19,449 nucleotides of DNA from a virus. Its lineage: Duplodnaviria; Heunggongvirae; Uroviricota; Caudoviricetes. The stretch is taken from positions 1 to 19,449 of IMG/VR virus record IMGVR_UViG_3300009551_000045; one strand, written 5' to 3'. The translations under genes and the position numbers were made by a program. Position 1 is the stretch's first letter. Every line of letters starts with the position of its first letter. Below, piece by piece: positions 1 to 7,921 of the stretch. Below the pieces are notes generated by a model, which ran no database searches, was not told the DNA's origin, and saw only the letters and a list, made by a program, of their open reading frames with translations.

Positions 1-71
1 AATAGATTGGCCTGGATGCTTTGGAGTTCATCTATGGTTTGATTCTGATTAGGGGGTTGATTTGTAGCCAT
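1..71 (-). CDS. 5' end of a gene running off the window (MATNQPPNQNQTIDELQSIQANL...); tape measure protein candidate by position only
   Basis: ATG at 71-69, frame open to base 1 (translated by hand), GATATTTATA motif 4 nt upstream. It follows the sheath-tube-chaperone(frameshift) series, where tape measure genes usually lie. Only 23 codons are visible. Confidence 0.5.
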   Translation of the reverse strand, partial: MATNQPPNQNQTIDELQSIQANL

Positions 72-75
72 ATAA

Positions 76-85
76 TATAAATATC
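76..85 (-). promoter_or_regulatory. GATATTTATA motif, putative phage late promoter
   Basis: Same 10-mer at 1135-1144 and 5253-5262, and GATATTTATT twice at 4658-4677, always on the minus strand upstream of a start codon. Confidence 0.6.
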
Positions 86-113
86 AAAGCCGGGGCTATT
101 TTTTCCCGGCTTT
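86..113 (-). terminator. GC-rich hairpin, probable intrinsic terminator after the frameshift-extended chaperone gene
   Basis: Perfect 9-bp inverted repeat aaagccggg (86-94) / cccggcttt (105-113) with a 10-nt loop containing the TAG (98-96) of the +1-frame ORF. The U-tract on the minus strand is short (TTTGATATTT). Confidence 0.65.
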
Positions 114-374
114 TGTAACATATGCTTCTGATTTTGATCGTTTTTTAGGAGGAACTCTCTTTGAAAGATCCGTTGTACTGGTTAATATCTTGTTTTTCTT
201 ATCTATTTCATCTGCAAGTTTCTGATTTTCATCAGATATCTTCATTATATAATACTTTCTGAGATAAGTCGGCATTTCGTAAGCATCCGTAAAAGTATAA
301 GCTCCTTTGGATTCTCTAACTAAAAAATCGATCTCATCATATAATATTTTTTTATAGGAGATATGGAGATCGAA
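96..374 (-). CDS. Frameshift-accessed C-terminal extension of the gp26-like chaperone (analogue of the T part of lambda gpGT); alternatively a separate 59-aa ORF from ATG 275
   Basis: Hand translation of the +1 frame: FDLHISYKKILYDEIDFLVRESKGAYTFTDAYEMPTYLRKYYIMKISDENQKLADEIDKKNKILTSTTDLSKRVPPKKRSKSEAYVTKAGKK*. The frame is closed upstream by TAA at 389-387 and has no ATG until 275. The LYDEIDFL...YEMPTYLRKYY segment resembles small post-chaperone tail assembly domains (recognised by eye). Confidence 0.75.
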   Translation of the reverse strand, partial: FDLHISYKKILYDEIDFLVRESKGAYTFTDAYEMPTYLRKYYIMKISDENQKLADEIDKKNKILTSTTDLSKRVPPKKRSKSEAYVTKAGKK

Positions 375-1116
375 AAAAGGTAGTATTTATTGGTAACGGA
401 AGGCCCTCCAATACCTCGCCGTTTTCTAAGATATAATCGAATTTAAAATCTATACCAGGGGAATTTTCATACATATTTTTACCCAATTCAACTGAATCCA
501 TCGTTATCAATCCATTATTTACAAAGTCTCTAATTGCGGCGGTAGATCTATCTCCATTTACGGCTACAATTTTATGATACCAATGTATAGAAGCTTCTTT
601 GGTGTTTTCTTCATTATAATGCTTTTTCATTGCCGCAATTTCTGTAGCAATCGATTCCTCATCTTTATGAGTTAATAATTTATAAGTTATATTTACACCT
701 GTTATAGGTAACACAAATTCAAATTCATTCTTGCCAGGTTGAATAGATGATTCATTAAATGACTTATCTTTAATCGTAGTAAGATCTACTTTTATTTGCT
801 TTGGTTTATATTCTCCTGGTAAAAGATAATTTAAATCATAATACTTACCAAACATAAGTATTCTAGAAGCTACAAATATAGCATTTTTATCACCAACAAT
901 GATATCGTCATAATTTATCTTAGATACGATCAGCGATTTAATCAAACGAGTCATCGTAGTTCCTTCTTCTTTGAAAGAATCATTCGCTAAAATATCTTCT
1001 TGTGCGGCTCCGCCGAACATCATTTCTATTGTACCAGAACTTAATGGATTGTCTTTCGCGTATATAAGACCTTTTGAAGGAAGAGGAATAACCTGTGTGG
1101 GTTTTTGATAAGCCAT
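352..1116 (-). CDS. T4 gp26-like baseplate hub / tail assembly chaperone protein
   Basis: 254-aa ORF. The IPLPSKGLIY...QEDIL...LIVSKINYDDIIVGDKNAIFVASRILMFG pattern and C-terminal SPGIDFKF...LPLPINTTFF are typical of T4_baseplate-family proteins encoded after the tube gene in large phages. Confidence 0.75.
   Translation of the reverse strand: MAYQKPTQVIPLPSKGLIYAKDNPLSSGTIEMMFGGAAQEDILANDSFKEEGTTMTRLIKSLIVSKINYDDIIVGDKNAIFVASRILMFGKYYDLNYLLPGEYKPKQIKVDLTTIKDKSFNESSIQPGKNEFEFVLPITGVNITYKLLTHKDEESIATEIAAMKKHYNEENTKEASIHWYHKIVAVNGDRSTAAIRDFVNNGLITMDSVELGKNMYENSPGIDFKFDYILENGEVLEGLPLPINTTFFRSPYLL
370..381 (-). other. Putative programmed ribosomal frameshift site ACC TTT TTT CGA (+1, or the frame-equivalent -2)
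   Basis: It is the only homopolymer run within the ~32-nt window (386-355) where frame 0 and the +1 frame are both open. Phe-tRNA can re-pair TTT to TTC. Confidence 0.65.
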
Positions 1117-1134: not shown

Positions 1135-1144
1135 TATAAATATC
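1135..1144 (-). promoter_or_regulatory. GATATTTATA motif, putative late promoter for the chaperone gene
   Basis: Exact copy, 18 nt upstream of ATG 1116 and just downstream of the terminator at 1151-1181. Confidence 0.6.
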
Positions 1145-1150
1145 ATATAA

Positions 1151-1181
1151 TAGAAAAACCTCCGGGTCTAAGCGGAGGTTT
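1151..1181 (-). terminator. Rho-independent terminator ending the sheath-tube-acidic protein transcript
   Basis: Minus strand reads AAACCTCCG-CTTAGACC-CGGAGGTTTTTCTA: 9-bp stem (1181-1173 / 1164-1156), 8-nt loop, U5 tract. Confidence 0.85.
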
Positions 1182-1225
1182 CTGATTCCGAAGGTAGCTC
1201 AGAATTACGAGTTCTGATACAATTT

Positions 1226-1822
1226 TTATAGTTCAAATCTATGATCCTTAATACGTTCTGCAACTTCGGCAGGCTTTTTGCCTTTCTTATGAGCTTTCGC
1301 TATATAAGGCATATATTTTTCTTTGATTTTCTTTCCATGACTTTCATCTTTACAATATTTACCAAGAGCTTTGACTACCTTATCACCAAATATATTGGCT
1401 TTTTCAGCATCTTCTTGCAAGATAGCATCTCTTGCATCTTTCATTTCAGCAATAACTTTGGTTGCTTCATGTAAATGTTTAGCTAATTTTCCTGAAAGTT
1501 TTTCAAGTTTCTTGTCTTTATTAGCTTCTGCAAATTCATTTAATGAATTAACATCTTCAGACAATCCTTGAAGAGTTGCGAATACTTCAGATACTTTGGG
1601 AGCAATTTCTTCTTCGTTAAGTTCTCCTTCTTCCGATGAACCTTCTTCTAATTCACCAGGCTTTACGAATTTTACATCATCTCCATTTTTAGTAGCATCT
1701 TTAGCTTTCTGCTTATTTTCTTCAGATGCTGAATCTGAAGTTCCATCCGGAGACGGAATCGTTAATTCTTCTTTAAGGATCTCTTTATAACATTCTCTTA
1801 CTAGGTCTTTAAATTTTTTCAT
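1226..1822 (-). CDS. Hypothetical phage protein with an acidic low-complexity N-half and a helical, Lys-rich C-half; possible internal head protein
   Basis: 198-aa ORF co-oriented 12 nt after the tube gene. Glu/Lys-rich with many (L/I)-x-E motifs. No family recognised with certainty. Confidence 0.75.
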   Translation of the reverse strand: MKKFKDLVRECYKEILKEELTIPSPDGTSDSASEENKQKAKDATKNGDDVKFVKPGELEEGSSEEGELNEEEIAPKVSEVFATLQGLSEDVNSLNEFAEANKDKKLEKLSGKLAKHLHEATKVIAEMKDARDAILQEDAEKANIFGDKVVKALGKYCKDESHGKKIKEKYMPYIAKAHKKGKKPAEVAERIKDHRFEL

Positions 1823-1834
1823 TAGTTTGTTAAA

Positions 1835-2323
1835 TTAGAAATTCAAGACGCAATAATCCATTTTCAAAATAATAGGTATCATCAAAGCTTGATCACCTGC
1901 AGACCAATCCAATTCGCCAAAAGCAGCATCTTTCACCCAAGATCCTATCATTTTCCATTCTCCGATTATATCTCCAACTGGTCCAACCAGTTCAAGTGTA
2001 ATATCTTTTTTATAGAAATCAGAATAACCAGCACGTCCTGTAACAGATTCATAACAAAGACGAGCCCATTCCATTACAGCTTGTTGTCCTGAAGGTGTAA
2101 TAGGATCGTATAATTCCATTGTTACATCCTGCCATTCTCTTTTACCAGCTACGAAGAAATAAGTATTGATATGATCAATTTTGATTTCTGCATCAGTAAA
2201 GTGGGGAGAAGTGACTTTTTTAATAATGTAGGATGGAATTCCATCAATATACATGTAGAAACGGTTAGCTACCTTTGGTTGAAAAGCAGTAAACATAATT
2301 TCGTTAGGGTCCAGAATCGACAT
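1835..2323 (-). CDS. Tail tube protein (T4 gp19-like)
   Basis: 162 aa directly after the sheath. The NRFYMYIDGIP...VAGKREWQDVTMELYDPITPSGQQAVMEW...YKKDITLELVGPVGDIIGEWKMIGSWVKDAAFGELDW...LKMDYC pattern is characteristic of gp19-like tubes. Confidence 0.93.
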   Translation of the reverse strand: MSILDPNEIMFTAFQPKVANRFYMYIDGIPSYIIKKVTSPHFTDAEIKIDHINTYFFVAGKREWQDVTMELYDPITPSGQQAVMEWARLCYESVTGRAGYSDFYKKDITLELVGPVGDIIGEWKMIGSWVKDAAFGELDWSAGDQALMIPIILKMDYCVLNF

Positions 2324-2349: not shown

Positions 2350-4617
2350 TTATTGTGAAACAACTGTACCATTAGAAATAAGAGTTCCTGTTGGGTTTAT
2401 TGTAAAATTCAATACGATATATTCCGCAGTTTTAGTTGGCCATACTCTTATTTCGCCGACTAATTCATTCTGATCGATAACATCAGCAGTATTATTAGTT
2501 TCATCCATTATTACCTGGATAGCATAAACACCTTGTTTAGATTGGACAAAAGAGAAATAAGGTCTTACAGCGTTTAAGAATTTATTTCTTGTTTGAGTAG
2601 TATTACCTTCAAATACAAGATATTTTGCAACAGATGCTGAGAATTTACGAAGATTGATAAGCAATCTACGAACATTGATCCTATTAAGAGCAGTATTTGC
2701 ACTTTGAAGTGTCTTTTGACCCCATACAGCAATACCAGTTCCTGGGAAATTAGCTATAGGGTTAATTTTAGCCGGATACAGGACATTTCTTTCTTTCTCC
2801 GATAGTTTATTAACCAAACCAACAACCCCTGAAATTCCACCTCTATTTAAACCAGCAGGAGCATACCATTCTTGACCGACTGAATCATTGTAAGCAATTA
2901 CTTGTGGTATAACTACAGAAGGCGGAACAGCCACTTTTTTATTATTAGAGCTATCAATTATTTTAACCCATGAATAATATACTGCTCCATAATTAGAGTC
3001 CAACGAAGCTGCACTAGCTTTAGCAGTAGCAATCGTATCATTTTGACCACAAAGATCTGGGATATATATCGCATCTGTTCTACTTTCTACTGTACTAAGA
3101 CCATATTGAACCACATAAGGATGTAATGTATTAATAACACCCGGCATAACCAACAGATTCATATCATATTGTTCAACATTAGATAATATATCCAAAGCAC
3201 GAATATAAGAAAGAGTTCCTGGTGCAGTAGATGTACTAAGATCAAATCCAAATAAATTACTTGGAGTTATATTAGCACCTGTATTTTTAATAACGGTATA
3301 ATTCATACCATCCAATCCACCTTGGAAAGGGACAAGGAACTTGTCATCTCCCGCAGGAAGTATAAAATTGGAATTATTACCTTGAGTAGCTTCTTTCGGA
3401 ATAGGATTAAGATAATTTAGATTATCTGTATTATTATAATTAAATCCAGAATATATCACAGAACTAGCCGTACTGTAAACCATACTAGCTGTAGGCAATG
3501 AATATCCTACAAATCCTGTGATTGTTTCATATACAGCCTCAAATCCTGCAGGATATACCTTCGGATCAATAGACCCATTCTTTACAGCATCACTTACCTC
3601 TACCCATACATAAGCAGAATTGTTAGGATAATCTCCATAATCAATTACTTTCTGTATATTTGAATCATATTTACTATATTCATCTCCAATTTTTTGGCTT
3701 ATATAAGAAGAGGCATCATCCGGATCTATTGTAAGATTATTAAATTGATCTACAATAGAGGGGACATTATCTGTATCATTGAAAGATCTCAAAAGAACAG
3801 AGAAAGTACTATATACTCCATCTACTGTGCTAGGTGAAATATCAGCAATAGCTAATTTCACGTCAATATTAGAGTCATTTCCAGGAGATATATGATGAAA
3901 TCTGAATAATCTTACACCACCTTCTGAAATGATCCACGGGGTTATAGCCTCACTATATCCACCTTGATTTGAACTTGTAAAAGTACAAGGGGCACTACTC
4001 AAAATAAGAGTAGCCTGATCAGAATAAGAAGAAGTACCTATAGCAACAGAAGCAGATAAATAATTATTGAATAACAAATAAGGAAATGCCGATCCTGTTT
4101 TAAAAGAAGGACTATTACCAAATATCTTTGTGATATAATTGTTATTTGTAGGATTCAAAGAAGAAGATGCCTGATAATTGACCGAGCTTCCACTTACATA
4201 TAAATTAAAACTATTCAAACTACCCGTAGCAAGTGTTGCCGAAAGTTCCGCTGCACCATCATTTGCGTTAATACTTGGATGTAAAACCGATAAAACAGAG
4301 CTTCCACTGACAAAAGCTGCCAATTTCCTAGAAGTTCCGTCAAAACCCCATCCCCCATCTCCTAAAATTCTTACAATTGTTGCTACAGGTGCAGATTTTA
4401 GATAATTTCTTACAGCATAAGGTATATAACTAGTTGGAGTTTCCTGGCCGAATTGAGCAGTAAAATCAGAAAAGGAATACACTGGTGTTGGTACATATGC
4501 AGGTCCCTTTAAAGTTGGTCCCACAAAGGCAGCACCAATTTGAGAAATACCCGATGCTACACCAGATAAATCTGTTTCTTGTGTAAAAACGCCAGGTGAT
4601 AGAAGTCTTCCAGCCAT
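2350..4617 (-). CDS. Contractile tail sheath protein (T4 gp18-like)
   Basis: 755 aa. N-terminal LSPGVFTQETDLS and AAFVGPTLKGP; C-terminal WYAPAGLNRG...INPIANFPGTGIAVWGQKTL...RINVRRLL...FEGNT...PTKTAEYIVLNF. All are hallmark sheath motifs. Confidence 0.97.
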   Translation of the reverse strand: MAGRLLSPGVFTQETDLSGVASGISQIGAAFVGPTLKGPAYVPTPVYSFSDFTAQFGQETPTSYIPYAVRNYLKSAPVATIVRILGDGGWGFDGTSRKLAAFVSGSSVLSVLHPSINANDGAAELSATLATGSLNSFNLYVSGSSVNYQASSSLNPTNNNYITKIFGNSPSFKTGSAFPYLLFNNYLSASVAIGTSSYSDQATLILSSAPCTFTSSNQGGYSEAITPWIISEGGVRLFRFHHISPGNDSNIDVKLAIADISPSTVDGVYSTFSVLLRSFNDTDNVPSIVDQFNNLTIDPDDASSYISQKIGDEYSKYDSNIQKVIDYGDYPNNSAYVWVEVSDAVKNGSIDPKVYPAGFEAVYETITGFVGYSLPTASMVYSTASSVIYSGFNYNNTDNLNYLNPIPKEATQGNNSNFILPAGDDKFLVPFQGGLDGMNYTVIKNTGANITPSNLFGFDLSTSTAPGTLSYIRALDILSNVEQYDMNLLVMPGVINTLHPYVVQYGLSTVESRTDAIYIPDLCGQNDTIATAKASAASLDSNYGAVYYSWVKIIDSSNNKKVAVPPSVVIPQVIAYNDSVGQEWYAPAGLNRGGISGVVGLVNKLSEKERNVLYPAKINPIANFPGTGIAVWGQKTLQSANTALNRINVRRLLINLRKFSASVAKYLVFEGNTTQTRNKFLNAVRPYFSFVQSKQGVYAIQVIMDETNNTADVIDQNELVGEIRVWPTKTAEYIVLNFTINPTGTLISNGTVVSQ

Positions 4618-5262: not shown

Positions 5263-7921
5263 AATTACTAATGATATTAATTCTATAACTTCTTGGTATA
5301 ATCAAATAATTTTTAATAATATCAATTGTTTCAGCAAATCCTATATTAGGGTGTACTGCATCTCTCGTATTTCCATAATAATCTAAAGAAGTATAGGTAG
5401 GTCCTGGAATACCTTGTTTATATAACATACCGGTAGTTGTAGGTATGAAAAATGTACTATCTTGTAGACCTATTAATGGAATAGAAGGCACAAATCTTGT
5501 AGCAGCTGTATCCCATACTATTGTACTTCCAGGATTATTTATGAATTTATTACATCCTTGATTTAAGGTTCCAAAATTACAAGCAGTCCAAACTGTATCA
5601 GTAGGTCCTACTAAATAACAATTTTTTACAAAAAGTGAATCATGATCATAGAAATCAAATCCTGGTACATATGGATCATTTCCAATCCCAAGACCTTGAT
5701 GACGTAATGTAATAAACCAAACTTCTGGAACTGTTCGCGCTCTAATATATGGTGATAATGAAGATGTATCTCCTGGATGTGATTGACATTCTAAAAATGG
5801 ATATTTTCTCGAACTATCACTTATACAATTATAAACTCTACTTCTTCCATTATATCCTGTACTCCATAATGAAAATAAATTAAACATAGACGGAATATCA
5901 GCTGCACCCCAATTTCGAACGCAGTTACCAAAATTATTTGTGCCAAACCAACAGTTGTAAACTTCGAAATAAGACATTCTTAAAAATAACATAGCAGCAT
6001 GACCTCTTGGATTAGGAACATTCATACCAAAATTCCAAAGACTATCATGATGTATATATATTCCATATACATTATATGCAAAAATGTATGTTGGTGGATT
6101 TGATAAAGCTGAATAATCTCCAAATTTATCATGATCTATTTCAACATTTATCCATGTCTGATTTTTAGCCAAAGCTCCGATGTAAATAGCTGTATTACCT
6201 GAATTTGCTCCAACTAAAGAATCAAAAGTACAATAACTCCATCTCCATTTATAAAAACAATTTATTGTATCTCCAGTAAAATTTGGAAGAGTTGCGAATG
6301 ATCTAGGACTTGATGGGAAAAATCCATTCATTCCTCTAAATGTGCAATGATCAATCCAAATATGTTGTGAATATCCCAAATTGGCATAAGAAGTAAAAGC
6401 AACATCTATATTATCATTCATAGTCCAATTATATATATGAACCCAAAATGATGAATCTATGCTATTTGCTCCCAATGGTGATGATGTGTTAGGAGTTATA
6501 AATGATCCATTTTGCCAAACTATAGTTATATATTTACCTTCGGATCTAGTACCAATACGATCTATTGTAAAACTTCTATATCCTCCTGATCTAACTGGAA
6601 TAAATACTGTATCTCCTCCCATTAAAGATACTCCAAATGTTGTATTATTAATTAATATATTAGAATTTGTTGAGGGCCAAGTAAAATTCATCGGTGATCT
6701 TGTAGAAGAATTAACAGTAACTTGAACCGTAGCAGTTCCAGTTAATGAAGTATTATCAGTTACAGTTATTTTAAATACATAAGTTCCCTGAATAAGTCCA
6801 GCAACCCCAGTAGTTAATAAATTCGGAGATGTTATACTAGCATTATTTGGTCCACTAACTTGACTCCAAACTATATTTGATGCTGTATTTCCGCATTGAT
6901 ATGTAACACTTGCAGAAATAGATGATGAACTTGTCGGTAAAGTTATTGTTTGATTAGATCCTGGTGTAACAATTGGATTACATGTAGGTCCAACTAGTGT
7001 AGTATCGCCCTGTGCAAGCATCCAAGTAAATATATTTTGACCGGTACGATAGGTTCCCTGCGTATTTGGTGCTGGTCCTGTACCAATATTAGGTCCTATA
7101 ACTGGAATAGTGCTCCAATTTGTTACAGATGGATCATACATAGAATTCCAACAGCAATGTGATCCCCCTCCAAGAGTTTCCCAAGCAAAATAAGCGGATC
7201 CTGGAACTGTATCATTCATAGGTTGTGACCAAAGATAACCATTTCGGAAATTATCCGAGCCATTACCTTCTAAATAAAAATACTTACCACCATATTTAGC
7301 TGCCCATACTTTATAAGCACCTTGTCGTCTATCCCATGAATTAATAGCTGGATTTGGAGTACCTTCGAGAGCTACAAGAGAAGTCATGCGACTCATACCA
7401 TCTTCTGTTCCAGCAGATTTTTCAAAACATACTAAAGCTCCCCAAGTAAATGCTCCTTCCGATAATCCGGCAAAGTGTCTACCTCTCGCTTTAATATGAT
7501 AGAATTTTATTAATGTATCTACTATATTAAGAACATCTGCTGCATATGTATTTACAGAATTAGTATAACACACAGTAATTAATAAAGGATAGTGTCTACC
7601 ATTACCCAATTGTATACCTCCATCCCATCCATTTTTTAACCAAAAATGAGGACCATATACAGTCAATTTACTTGTATCAGTAGTACCTAATTCACCCTGA
7701 CCTGGCATTGTAATAATAGCCGGACGAGATGCTGTATCTGGATGGCCTGCAGTAAAATAATTACGAGGACGAGTAATTCTTATATTCCATATATTAGTAG
7801 GCCCAAATGGCGCATTGAAAATCGAAATAGTGGTATCATAGGTAATCATGTCATGAGTCTCCGACTGACTGAATCCTATGATAGGTAAAAACAGTAAAAG
7901 AAAAAATAATTTCTTAATCAT
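5261..7921 (-). CDS. Exported multidomain protein: signal peptide + alpha/beta-hydrolase (serine esterase-like) + PKD/Ig-like domain + right-handed beta-helix-like domain
   Basis: Signal peptide MIKKLFFLLLFLPIIGFS|Q; oxyanion-like PAIITMPGQGE; nucleophile elbow GLSEG (7468-7454); candidate catalytic His in GGSHCCW; PKD signature GSNQTITLP...WSQVSGPN...GLIQGTYVFKITVTDN...VQVTVN; C-half with IDHCTF/YNCWF/YNCIS beta-helix-like repeats; 16 Cys. Confidence 0.8.
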   Translation of the reverse strand: MIKKLFFLLLFLPIIGFSQSETHDMITYDTTISIFNAPFGPTNIWNIRITRPRNYFTAGHPDTASRPAIITMPGQGELGTTDTSKLTVYGPHFWLKNGWDGGIQLGNGRHYPLLITVCYTNSVNTYAADVLNIVDTLIKFYHIKARGRHFAGLSEGAFTWGALVCFEKSAGTEDGMSRMTSLVALEGTPNPAINSWDRRQGAYKVWAAKYGGKYFYLEGNGSDNFRNGYLWSQPMNDTVPGSAYFAWETLGGGSHCCWNSMYDPSVTNWSTIPVIGPNIGTGPAPNTQGTYRTGQNIFTWMLAQGDTTLVGPTCNPIVTPGSNQTITLPTSSSSISASVTYQCGNTASNIVWSQVSGPNNASITSPNLLTTGVAGLIQGTYVFKITVTDNTSLTGTATVQVTVNSSTRSPMNFTWPSTNSNILINNTTFGVSLMGGDTVFIPVRSGGYRSFTIDRIGTRSEGKYITIVWQNGSFITPNTSSPLGANSIDSSFWVHIYNWTMNDNIDVAFTSYANLGYSQHIWIDHCTFRGMNGFFPSSPRSFATLPNFTGDTINCFYKWRWSYCTFDSLVGANSGNTAIYIGALAKNQTWINVEIDHDKFGDYSALSNPPTYIFAYNVYGIYIHHDSLWNFGMNVPNPRGHAAMLFLRMSYFEVYNCWFGTNNFGNCVRNWGAADIPSMFNLFSLWSTGYNGRSRVYNCISDSSRKYPFLECQSHPGDTSSLSPYIRARTVPEVWFITLRHQGLGIGNDPYVPGFDFYDHDSLFVKNCYLVGPTDTVWTACNFGTLNQGCNKFINNPGSTIVWDTAATRFVPSIPLIGLQDSTFFIPTTTGMLYKQGIPGPTYTSLDYYGNTRDAVHPNIGFAETIDIIKNYLIIPRSYRINIISN

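What the first reader, a model, noticed from the sequence alone, without database searches (positions are those of the whole stretch)
96..389. Hidden programmed +1 (or -2) frameshift at TTT TTT CGA giving a G/GT-like pair from a T4 gp26-like gene
Seen: the 254-aa ORF ends ...NTTFFRSPYLL*. The +1 frame opens just before (TAA at 389-387) and runs stop-free to TAG 98-96. It has no ATG for its first ~35 codons, yet that stretch (LYDEIDFLVRESKGAYTFTDAYE) looks like genuine protein, and its stop lies in the loop of a terminator-like hairpin. Slippage TTT to TTC in front of a CGA codon would give a ~339-aa fusion (248+91). Known: tailed phages often make tail chaperones G and GT by a frameshift between the tube and tape measure genes (usually -1; -2 in Mu), and UUU_CGN is the +1 site of influenza PA-X. 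Inference: this supports a chaperone role for the gp26-like protein and a less common +1/-2 mechanism that annotation pipelines would miss.
Basis: partly seen in the sequence, partly recalled or inferred. Interest (0 to 1): 0.75.

Follow-up and report, generated by a model that had tools for sequence, protein, structure and literature searches.

The report
+1 frameshift in phage tail chaperone
A tail-assembly helper gene of this soil phage very probably makes a short (254 aa) and a long (339 aa) protein because some ribosomes slip forward one base on a run of U's. Over 80 related phages keep the same hidden arrangement, and none of the six isolate records I read annotates it.

Summary
The 254-aa ORF (1116..352, minus strand) ends ...TTFFRSPYLL*. 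The +1 frame is open from 386 to TAG 98-96 and has no ATG, GTG or TTG before 275.

This is not an assembly error. The same 254-aa ORF lies on six contigs, and another run's contig covers the site without an indel.

- **Conservation:** in 80 of 80 usable related viral loci (31-50% identity) the +1 frame is open across the stop for 65-112 codons. The -1 frame is closed (median 10 codons).
- **Frame switch:** constraint moves from frame 0 to frame +1 exactly at two invariant Phe codons.
- **No independent start:** 28 of 83 loci have no start codon upstream of the conserved FFxL opening.
- **Site:** UUU_UUU_UGG in most loci, UUU_CUU_UGG in some, and UUU_UUU_CGN in the window's own subclade.
- **Other direction:** distant relatives PA5oct and RsoM2USA shift -1 at the same Phe-Phe position.
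- **Context:** the gene lies between the tube and tape-measure genes. Its N-terminal 90 residues resemble solved tail assembly chaperones.

Novelty is limited. T4 gp26/gp51 were published as tail assembly chaperones in 2022. This scan has already followed up the -1 version many times, and three first readers noted the +1 version on other DNA.

The parts
352..1116 (-). Frame-0 ORF, 254 aa: the short form of a T4 gp26/gp51-like tail (baseplate-hub) assembly chaperone
   Evidence: ORF list and translation. Family matches: PF12322 E 5.7e-4 (below Pfam's cut-off) and phrog_150 E 4e-7. There are 3103 homologs, and the best 120 are all 241-274 aa. The model has pLDDT 91, and its BFVD matches are T4-like baseplate hub assembly proteins.
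370..378 (-). Shift site UUU_UUU_CGA: Phe247, Phe248, then rare Arg codon CGA in frame 0. Proposed slip of P-site tRNA-Phe from UUU (375-373) to UUC (374-372).
   Evidence: The sequence itself. Both Phe codons are invariant in the alignments. Homologous sites were tabulated in 83 loci. The subclade keeps UUU_UUU_CGN. CGA makes up 2.5 per 1000 codons, 8% of Arg.
96..371 (-). +1-frame extension: 91 codons (GAT 371-369 to AAA 101-99) plus stop TAG 98-96. This is the C-terminal part of the 339-aa long form.
   Evidence: Translation. The extension is conserved as protein in 77 distinct loci from FFxL onward. In the first 34 columns, codon-position entropies are 0.84, 0.71 and 1.30. The model shows three helices (6-22, 29-34, 37-67) and a disordered basic tail. 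A profile of the extension finds 1090 representative proteins.
387..389 (-). TAA that closes the +1 frame upstream. With the frame-0 stop at 354-352 it bounds the shift to 386..355.
   Evidence: Across loci the bounds narrow to about -2..+15 nt around the first Phe codon.
86..113 (-). Terminator-like hairpin with the long form's stop codon in its loop. It is followed by UUUGAUAUUUAU and the next gene's ATG.
   Evidence: Fold: -16.8 kcal/mol, z -2.8. The same arrangement is present in relative L094.
1154..1183 (-). Terminator-like hairpin upstream of the chaperone gene. Together with 86-113 it brackets the short ORF and the extension as one unit.
   Evidence: Terminator scan: 11 pairs, then a T-rich tail.
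1..71 (-). First 23 codons of the next gene (ATG at 71-69), cut off by the contig end: a tape-measure homolog
   Evidence: Its N-terminus matches that of the 760-aa protein of relative L094. That protein aligns with the annotated tape measure protein of Flavobacterium phage immuto, E 2e-32. The window is the start of the contig.
1835..2323 (-). Tail tube gene (162 aa)
   Evidence: phrog_4542 tail tube, E 1.8e-21. PF06841 is weak.
2350..4617 (-). Tail sheath gene (755 aa)
   Evidence: PF04984, PF17482 and phrog_23 (E 8.6e-66).

Best explanation
The gene at 1116..352 encodes the tail (baseplate-hub) assembly chaperone of a T4-related myovirus from soil or rhizosphere metagenomes.

Most ribosomes read frame 0 and make a 254-aa short form. 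A minority slip forward one base when tRNA-Phe sits on the second UUU (375-373) and the rare codon CGA (372-370) waits in the A site. The tRNA re-pairs with UUC (374-372), and decoding continues in the +1 frame with GAU. This gives a 339-aa long form.

The long form carries a three-helix domain and a basic tail. The two forms share the chaperone domain. By analogy with lambda gpG/gpGT, both would coat the tape measure protein encoded by the next gene. The extra domain of the rare long form would link that complex to another tail part (hub, tube initiator or tube).

**Shown:**
- the two-frame layout and its conservation
- the exact place where coding constraint changes frame
- the lack of a conserved start codon
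- the gene's position
- the chaperone-like fold

**Inferred:**
- the ribosomal +1 mechanism
- the ratio of the two forms
- the binding partners
For: 1. **Conservation.** In 80 of 80 usable related viral loci (31-50% identity) the +1 frame is open across the frame-0 stop and runs 65-112 codons (median 86). The -1 frame runs a median of 10 codons. The same holds in isolates Flavobacterium phage immuto, Microcystis phage Mel-JY01, Bacillus phages SP-15 and HSE3, Listeria phage LIS04 and Streptococcus phage GXN1.

2. **Frame switch.** Per-base entropy shows frame-0 periodicity upstream of the Phe-Phe codons, a 15-nt nearly invariant block (TTTTTTTGGCCTGAC in most loci), then +1 periodicity. Between the slip site and the first Met the extension has a coding signature in frame +1: 0.84, 0.71 and 1.30.

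3. **No independent start.** Of 83 loci, 28 have no ATG, GTG or TTG in the +1 ORF at or upstream of the conserved FFxL, and only 13 have an ATG there. The Leu of FFxL is invariant in frame +1, while the overlapping frame-0 residue varies between Pro and Ser.

4. **No fused forms.** The best 120 of the 3103 homologs are 241-274 aa, with no in-frame fusion. The best 150 matches to the extension profile are nearly all under 135 aa, with two of 159 and 266 aa.

5. **Ribosomal +1 rather than slippage on a homopolymer.** Eleven of 83 loci have UUU_CUU or UUU_CUA, where Phe UUU to UUC or Leu CUU to UUU can re-pair. On the tree this interruption arose at least 3 times. The window's subclade keeps UUU_UUU_CGN with CGA, CGT, CGA and CGG, while the +1 residue there varies (D, V, D, G). 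CGA is rare in this phage.

6. **Chaperone role.** The gene order is sheath, tube, (198-aa ORF), this gene, tape measure. The top four of 48,161 solved chains for residues 1-95 include YqbN 3klu (Z 6.5, rmsd 4.1 A over 86 residues) and the HK97 tail assembly chaperone 2ob9 (Z 5.0, rmsd 3.9 A over 75). The next unrelated row has Z 3.1. T4 gp26 and gp51 are listed as hub assembly chaperones (PMC3004832). They are cited as the short and long tail assembly chaperones of T4 (PMC10885494).

7. **Not an artefact.**
Against: - No protein, peptide, reporter or ribosome-profiling data exist for any member, so the long form is inferred.
- No conserved downstream RNA structure was found: mean z -0.54 over 83 loci, and the window's own hairpin has z -1.45. 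There is no Shine-Dalgarno-like element before the window's site, so efficiency may be low.
- In-frame UUU_CGN is not avoided elsewhere in this phage: 7 seen against 6.6 expected. The motif alone therefore cannot be very shifty.
- On the window's own T6 run a -2 slip or loss of one U during transcription would give nearly the same product.
- The structural Z-scores (5-6.5) are in a range that can arise from a common fold arrangement.
- Homology of the extension to the C-terminus of T4 gp51 could not be shown.
Confidence: 0.75

Rival explanations
1. The long form is real, but it arises from a -2 ribosomal slip (giving ...TTFFFDL...) or from RNA polymerase slippage on the T-run that drops one U from some transcripts.
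For: The window has six T's and most relatives have seven at the site. A -2 slip from UUU 375-373 back to UUU 377-375 re-pairs perfectly. Homopolymer runs of about this length can support low-level transcriptional slippage (general knowledge; reviewed in PMC5009743).
Against: Eleven of 83 loci interrupt the run (UUU_CUU, UUU_CUA) yet keep the same two-frame layout, and the interruption arose at least 3 times. Two Firmicute phages have only UUC_UUU_CGU. For these a +1 re-pairing works, and a -2 slip or homopolymer slippage does not. One mechanism for the whole family is more economical.
Confidence: 0.12
2. The downstream frame is a separate small gene, translated on its own from ATG 275 or from an unusual start codon. 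No fusion protein is made.
For: Gene callers call small ORFs here: 49-82 aa in the window's relatives and 50-134 aa among the profile matches. A Met at the position of ATG 275 is nearly invariant. Isolate records annotate separate hypothetical proteins.
Against: The 34 codons before that Met are conserved as protein in frame +1, including the part that overlaps the end of the upstream ORF. Twenty-eight of 83 loci have no ATG, GTG or TTG upstream of that conserved part, and where one exists its position varies from -65 to -5. In L052 the first start lies 235 nt downstream. The conserved Met sits inside a Y-x-M-P motif of helix 2-3.
Confidence: 0.08
3. The arrangement is an artefact or a decaying gene: a sequencing indel or a pseudogenised fusion.
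For: Homopolymer runs are typical sites of indel errors.
Against: The same ORF is called on 6 contigs. An independent run's contig is identical over 98-539. The same frame offset occurs in 80 of 80 related loci and six isolate genomes.
Confidence: 0.01

Closest known systems
Lambda gpG/gpGT and the conserved frameshift of tail assembly chaperone genes (Levin 1993; Xu, Hendrix and Duda 2004, 2013, 2014; summarised in PMC5009743)
   Same: The gene lies between the tube and tape-measure genes. A second ORF without its own start overlaps the 3' end of the first. A slippery site lies in the overlap. A short form and a rarer long form share the N-terminal chaperone domain. Weak fold likeness to the solved HK97 chaperone.
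   Different: The direction is +1, not -1. The site is UUU_UUU_CGA or YUU_UGG, not an X_XXY_YYZ heptamer. The chaperone is about twice as long (254 aa) and has extra domains. It belongs to the T4 gp26/gp51 family. Binding partners are untested.
Phage T4 gp26 and gp51 (PF12322, phrog_150): hub assembly chaperones, reported as T4's short and long tail assembly chaperones encoded by two genes (Vladimirov, Gautam and Davidson 2022, as cited in PMC10885494)
   Same: Same family by profile and fold. T4 gp26 ends ...KEFFELL*, with the same Phe-Phe motif a few residues before its stop. gp51 has about 45 extra C-terminal positions in phrog_150 relative to gp26.
   Different: T4 has two separate genes, no overlapping frame and no extension after gene 26. 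Sequence similarity between this extension and the gp51 C-terminus is not significant: hhalign E 0.1, and HMMER scores are no better than shuffled controls.
-1 frameshift at U_UUU_UUC in gp26-like genes of jumbo and T4-like phages (earlier follow-ups of this scan; poly-T -1 signals in T4-like TAC-N genes as cited in PMC12846349)
   Same: Same gene family and the same Phe-Phe position. The hidden extension has the same size and is unannotated. Checked here in PA5oct (AGT_TTT_TTC, -1 frame open 69 codons) and RsoM2USA (T9, -1 frame open 79 codons).
   Different: The opposite direction of slip. In the window's clade the -1 frame is closed.
Influenza A PA-X +1 site UCC_UUU_CGU (Firth et al. 2012, cited in PMC5009743)
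   Same: tRNA-Phe moves from UUU to UUC in front of a rare CGN codon, with no evident stimulatory structure. Two Firmicute phage relatives read UUC_UUU_CGU_C.
   Different: A bacterial ribosome and an unrelated gene. In most relatives the A-site codon is UGG or UAY, not CGN.
Haloarchaeal myovirus HSTV-2 tail chaperone, reported as very likely +1 (PMC5009743)
   Same: A tail chaperone pair joined by a presumed +1 shift.
   Different: Archaeal host. I did not compare the sequences.

Membership tests
Tail assembly chaperone pair with programmed frameshift (lambda G/GT type) | The gene lies between the tail tube gene and the tape measure gene | tested here: met
   The order is sheath, tube, 198-aa ORF, this gene, then the tape-measure homolog. 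The same order is annotated in immuto, HSE3, LIS04 and SP-15.
Tail assembly chaperone pair with programmed frameshift (lambda G/GT type) | A second ORF in another frame overlaps the 3' end of the first and lacks a conserved start of its own | tested here: met
   80 of 80 loci have the overlapping ORF, and 28 of 83 have no start codon upstream of the conserved part.
Tail assembly chaperone pair with programmed frameshift (lambda G/GT type) | A conserved slippery sequence lies in the overlap | tested here: met
   A YUU codon followed by U or C occurs in nearly all the loci; L083 reads TTC TTC before its TTT_C. The site is a +1 type, not the classical -1 heptamer.
Tail assembly chaperone pair with programmed frameshift (lambda G/GT type) | The chaperone fold of solved tail assembly chaperones | tested here: inconclusive
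   Residues 1-95: 3klu Z 6.5 (rmsd 4.1 A, 86 aligned), 3fgx Z 5.8, 2ob9 (HK97 chaperone) Z 5.0, 5ir0 Z 4.5, then Z 3.1. Foldseek against the PDB gave nothing at E <= 1e-3. That YqbN (3klu) is an XkdN-type tail chaperone is from my own knowledge.
Tail assembly chaperone pair with programmed frameshift (lambda G/GT type) | Both forms are made in a set ratio, bind the tape measure protein and are absent from virions | not testable with these tools
   This needs expression, pull-down and virion proteomics.
T4 gp26/gp51 family (PF12322 T4_baseplate, phrog_150) | Significant match to the family profile | tested here: met
   phrog_150 E 4.1e-7. Many homologs carry PF12322. The window's own PF12322 score of 20.1 bits is below Pfam's cut-off of 24.5.
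T4 gp26/gp51 family (PF12322 T4_baseplate, phrog_150) | Shared fold with named family members | tested here: met
   BFVD gave 53 matches at E <= 1e-3. They include the SP-15 baseplate hub subunit (E 1.9e-16, TM 0.80) and 'baseplate hub assembly protein, bacteriophage T4-like' (E 2.3e-12).
T4 gp26/gp51 family (PF12322 T4_baseplate, phrog_150) | The extension corresponds to the C-terminal part that gp51 has beyond gp26 | tested here: inconclusive
   The layout fits: gp26 covers phrog_150 positions 14-235 and gp51 covers 13-280. hhalign aligns extension 6-54 with gp51 206-251 colinearly, but at E 0.1. HMMER scores are no better than for shuffled or reversed gp51.
PA-X type +1 site (UUU_CGN) | UUU in the P site can re-pair as UUC, and a rare CGN codon is in the A site | tested here: met
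   The window has UUU_UUU_CGA, and its relatives have CGT, CGA and CGG. CGA is 2.5 per 1000 codons in this phage's ORFs. The host tRNA pool is unknown.
prfB (RF2) type +1 site | A stop codon in the A site and a Shine-Dalgarno-like stimulator three bases upstream | tested here: not met
   The frame-0 stop is 6 codons downstream of the site. No G-rich element precedes the window's site. Relatives with CUU_UGG resemble CUU_UGA only in the P-site re-pairing.

The most novel reading that the evidence does not exclude
The Phe-Phe/U-run codons near the end of gp26-like chaperone genes may be a slip site that evolution uses in both directions.

- Sister lineages shift -1 at U_UUU_UUC.
- A very large aquatic and soil clade shifts +1 at YUU_UGG or UUU_CGN.
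- That +1 shift has no stop codon, no Shine-Dalgarno element and no RNA structure.
- The 15-nt block UUUUUUUGGCCUGAC is more conserved than either reading frame needs. It would then be a new kind of bacterial +1 signal.
Probability: 0.25. Interest if true: 0.7.

Novelty: new variant of a known kind. Interest (0 to 1): 0.55.

Why it matters
- **The T4 exception.** Tail chaperone frameshifting was described as conserved in long-tailed phages 'except T4' (PMC5009743). This gene shows that the T4-type chaperone family does use recoding, and here in the uncommon +1 direction.
- **Annotation.** The frame-0 protein has 3103 homologs and the extension profile finds 1090 representative proteins. None of the six isolate records I read joins the two ORFs, so annotation pipelines split one long protein into a 'baseplate hub subunit' and a 'hypothetical protein'.
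- **A test system.** The family offers natural series of +1 sites (UUU_UGG, CUU_UGG, UUU_CGN, UUU_UAY) and -1 sites at one homologous position. It includes culturable members: immuto on Flavobacterium and SP-15 on Bacillus subtilis. That makes the rules of stimulator-free +1 slippage in bacteria directly testable.

Tried and rejected
- **Fold of the fused long form.** The short form and the extension were folded separately instead.
- **Extension with tube protein.** Complex prediction returned 'no answer'. It says nothing either way.
- **Extension versus T4 gp51 C-terminus.** hhalign gave E 0.78 (single sequence) and 0.1 (profiles). HMMER against 92 gp51 homologs was no better than shuffled or reversed controls.
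- **Short-form profile versus T4 proteins.** hhalign against gp26 and gp51 was not significant, although both sides hit phrog_150.
- **Downstream stimulatory RNA structure.** The window's hairpin has z -1.45, and the mean z over 83 loci is -0.54. It is not conserved.
- **Foldseek.** The short form against the PDB gave nothing at E <= 1e-3. The extension against BFVD gave only small ORFs with E >= 0.09.
- **In-frame fusions.** None appeared among the best 150 matches to the extension profile. Lower-ranked matches were not seen.
- **RNA evidence.** No RNA holder is listed for this stretch, so transcript slippage could not be examined. Three of the four laid runs do not cover the site.
- **Chance estimate.** The genome-wide survey of alternative-frame extensions is confounded by real overlapping genes.
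- **Literature.** The full-text searches run before one search found no paper describing a +1 shift in gp26-like genes. The primary paper of Vladimirov et al. 2022 is not held, so I cannot say whether it mentions +1 cases.
Full report
**What is in the sequence**

On the minus strand the window carries these genes:

- a tail sheath gene (4617..2350)
- a tail tube gene (2323..1835)
- an acidic 198-aa ORF with no family (1822..1226)
- a terminator-like hairpin (1183..1154)
- a 254-aa ORF (1116..352)

The 254-aa ORF ends ACC TTT TTT CGA TCT CCA TAT CTC CTA TAA, which reads ...T F F R S P Y L L *. The +1 frame is closed by TAA 389-387. It is then open for 97 codons to TAG 98-96. Its first ATG, GTG or TTG is ATG 275.

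TAG 98-96 lies in the loop of a 9-bp hairpin (113-105 / 94-86; z -2.8). The hairpin is followed at once by the ATG (71-69) of the next gene, which the contig end cuts off.

**Not an artefact**

The identical 254-aa protein is called on six contigs from different sequencing runs. A contig from another rhizosphere sample and study covers 98-539 with no difference and no gap.

**Conservation**

The frame-0 protein has 3103 homologs. The best 120 are all 241-274 aa, so none is an in-frame fusion of about 340 aa. I fetched 80 related viral contigs and added three phage records and the window.

- In 80 of 80 loci not cut by a contig end, the +1 frame is open across the frame-0 stop and runs 65-112 codons further (median 86). 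The -1 frame runs a median of 10 codons.
- The extension aligns from its first residues: FFxL, then a motif like PEYR..LF.QIHEIVFHG.GGYD..TVYNMPIWLR.F, a variable linker, and a basic end.
- In the 34 columns before the conserved Met (ATG 275 in the window), the entropy by +1-frame codon position is 0.84, 0.71 and 1.30. That stretch is therefore coding.
- Base by base, constraint shows frame-0 periodicity up to the two Phe codons. A 15-nt nearly invariant block follows (TTTTTTTGGCCTGAC in most loci), and then +1 periodicity.
- Twenty-eight of 83 loci have no ATG, GTG or TTG in the +1 ORF at or before FFxL, and only 13 have an ATG. Where a start exists, its position varies.
- The Leu of FFxL is invariant, while the overlapping frame-0 residue changes: Pro in most loci, Ser in the window.

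An independent small gene does not explain these facts. A change of frame at the Phe codons does.

**The site and the direction**

Site counts among the 83 loci:

| Site | Loci |
|---|---|
| TTT TTT TGG | 65 |
| TTT CTT TGG | 6 |
| TTT CTT TAC | 4 |
| TTT TTT TAC | 3 |
| TTT TTT TAT, TTT TTT TTC, TTT CTA TTC, TTC TTC TTT C | 1 each |
| TTT TTT CGA (the window) | 1 |

- On a quick tree, the window and its three closest relatives form a well-supported group (99). They read TTT TTT CGA, CGT, CGA and CGG.
- There the frame-0 Arg codon family is kept, while the +1 residue at that place varies (D, V, D, G). This points to selection on UUU_CGN itself or on Arg.
- CGA is rare in this phage: 2.5 per 1000 codons and 8% of Arg codons.
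- The C-interrupted sites arose at least three times inside the T7 group. They still allow +1 re-pairing (UUU to UUC, or CUU to UUU). They do not allow a -2 slip or polymerase slippage on a homopolymer.
- More distant relatives in Firmicute phages also have the extension in frame +1: HSE3 and GXN1 at UUC_UUU_CGU, SP-15 at UUU_UUU_C, and LIS04 at UUU_UUU_A.
- The jumbo phages PA5oct (AGT_TTT_TTC) and RsoM2USA (a T9 run) have it in frame -1, at the same Phe-Phe position.

I found no conserved downstream RNA structure. The window has no Shine-Dalgarno-like element before the site. In-frame UUU_CGN is not avoided elsewhere in the phage. The shift is therefore probably inefficient, as in lambda G/GT and influenza PA-X. 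That is an inference.

**What the protein is**

- The window's short form matches phrog_150 'baseplate hub' (E 4e-7). It matches PF12322 weakly (20.1 bits, below the cut-off of 24.5). Many homologs carry PF12322.
- Its model is confident (pLDDT 91, pTM 0.86). It matches predicted structures named baseplate hub subunit or hub assembly protein of T4-like phages, for example SP-15 at E 1.9e-16 and TM 0.80.
- Against 48,161 solved chains, the four best matches all cover residues 1-95: YqbN 3klu (Z 6.5), 3fgx (Z 5.8), the HK97 tail assembly chaperone 2ob9 (Z 5.0) and 5ir0 (Z 4.5). The next row has Z 3.1. These Z-scores are modest, so I treat the fold likeness as supporting, not proving.
- The extension folds as three helices (6-22, 29-34, 37-67) with a disordered basic tail.
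- A profile of the extension finds 1090 representative proteins. The best 150 are almost all small ORFs of 50-134 aa, which are the pieces that gene callers cut out of this frame.
- The next gene's N-terminus matches that of a 760-aa protein in the 75%-identical relative L094. That protein aligns with the annotated tape measure protein of phage immuto (E 2e-32).

**Comparison with what is known**

- The lambda G/GT frameshift is conserved in long-tailed phages 'except T4', and one archaeal myovirus probably uses +1 (PMC5009743).
- T4 gp26 and gp51 are listed as hub assembly chaperones (PMC3004832).
- Vladimirov, Gautam and Davidson (2022) are cited as showing that T4-like phages carry a short and a long chaperone as two genes (PMC10885494). 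They are also cited for poly-T -1 signals in the TAC-N genes of T4-like phages (PMC12846349). I could not read that paper.
- In T4 itself, gp26 ends ...KEFFELL* with the same Phe-Phe motif, but no second frame follows.
- gp51 extends about 45 profile positions beyond gp26 in phrog_150. I could not show that this window's extension is homologous to that part.

**Earlier notes of this scan**

- Many follow-ups describe the -1 U_UUU_UUC version in jumbo and T4-like phages, for example e1-5370134 and e1-4019537.
- Three first-reader notes describe +1 versions on other DNA (e1-5341964, e1-5373128, e1-5387343).
- My checks agree with them. The new points here are the survey of the +1 clade, the recurrent C-interrupted sites, the UUU_CGN subclade, and the fold match to solved chaperones.

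**Verdict**

It is a new variant (the +1 direction and its site types) of a known kind: the tail assembly chaperone frameshift, and the T4 gp26/gp51 chaperones. None of the six isolate records I read annotates it. The mechanism, the ratio of the two forms and their binding partners remain inferred.

Noticed in passing
window 1226-1822 (-): An acidic, Lys/Glu-rich 198-aa ORF lies between the tube gene and the chaperone gene. It has no Pfam family and only a marginal PHROG hit (phrog_17358, E 0.028). Close relatives keep it (201-212 aa in L094-L096). Immuto, Mel-JY01, SP-15, LIS04 and HSE3 lack it, and there the chaperone follows the tube gene directly.
   Followed up: partly
related loci L004-L083, 15 nt from the first Phe codon: The block TTTTTTTGGCCTGAC is nearly invariant at all three codon positions of both frames (entropy 0-0.74). 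That is more than either protein needs. It could be dual-coding constraint or a nucleotide-level signal for the shift. The window's subclade lacks it (TTTTTTCGATCTCCA).
   Followed up: partly
window 345-354 (-): The frame-0 stop TAA runs into a run of seven A's (CTA TAA AAA AAT). In frame +1 this reads Lys-Lys. Relative L094 does not keep it (CTA TAA GAA).
   Followed up: partly
window 72-86 and 1135-1154 (-): Both terminator-like hairpins that bracket the chaperone unit are followed by GATATTTAT(A/T) just before the next ATG. This is the motif another first-reader note proposes as a late promoter. The copy after the extension's stop is identical in relative L094.
   Followed up: partly
L091 (LR756511.1, uncultured 595-kb phage): Here the frame that carries the N-terminal match runs on to a tail without the Phe-Phe motif. 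Another frame holds ...SGFFLPTP... and an extension-like sequence. The layout differs from both the +1 and the -1 patterns and was not resolved.
   Followed up: no
T4 locus L084, genes 27 and 28 (6349-6404): T4 gene 28 is annotated as starting 56 nt inside gene 27. T4 gene 26 also has an annotated in-frame internal product 26' (95 aa).
   Followed up: no
gp51 homologs P0123-P0214: Nearly all carry a second precomputed Pfam family, PF28602, beside PF12322. The local Pfam scan returned no PF28602 match for T4 gp51 or for the long form P0122, so I could not establish whether the window's extension belongs to it.
   Followed up: no
BFVD matches to the extension model: Small ORFs that match the extension have accession numbers adjacent to gp26-like proteins of the same phage, for example Leptospira phage LE4 A0A343LED7 next to A0A343LED6. 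A small ORF and a gp26-like protein of Myoviridae sp. ctgXL3 (A0A8S5QR30, A0A8S5QRT9) were also both matched. This suggests the split annotation is widespread.
   Followed up: no
whole window: The runs that hold this stretch are rhizosphere, soil and plant metagenomes from 14 studies. Most homologous viral contigs carry the aquatic-type TTTTTTTGG site.
   Followed up: no
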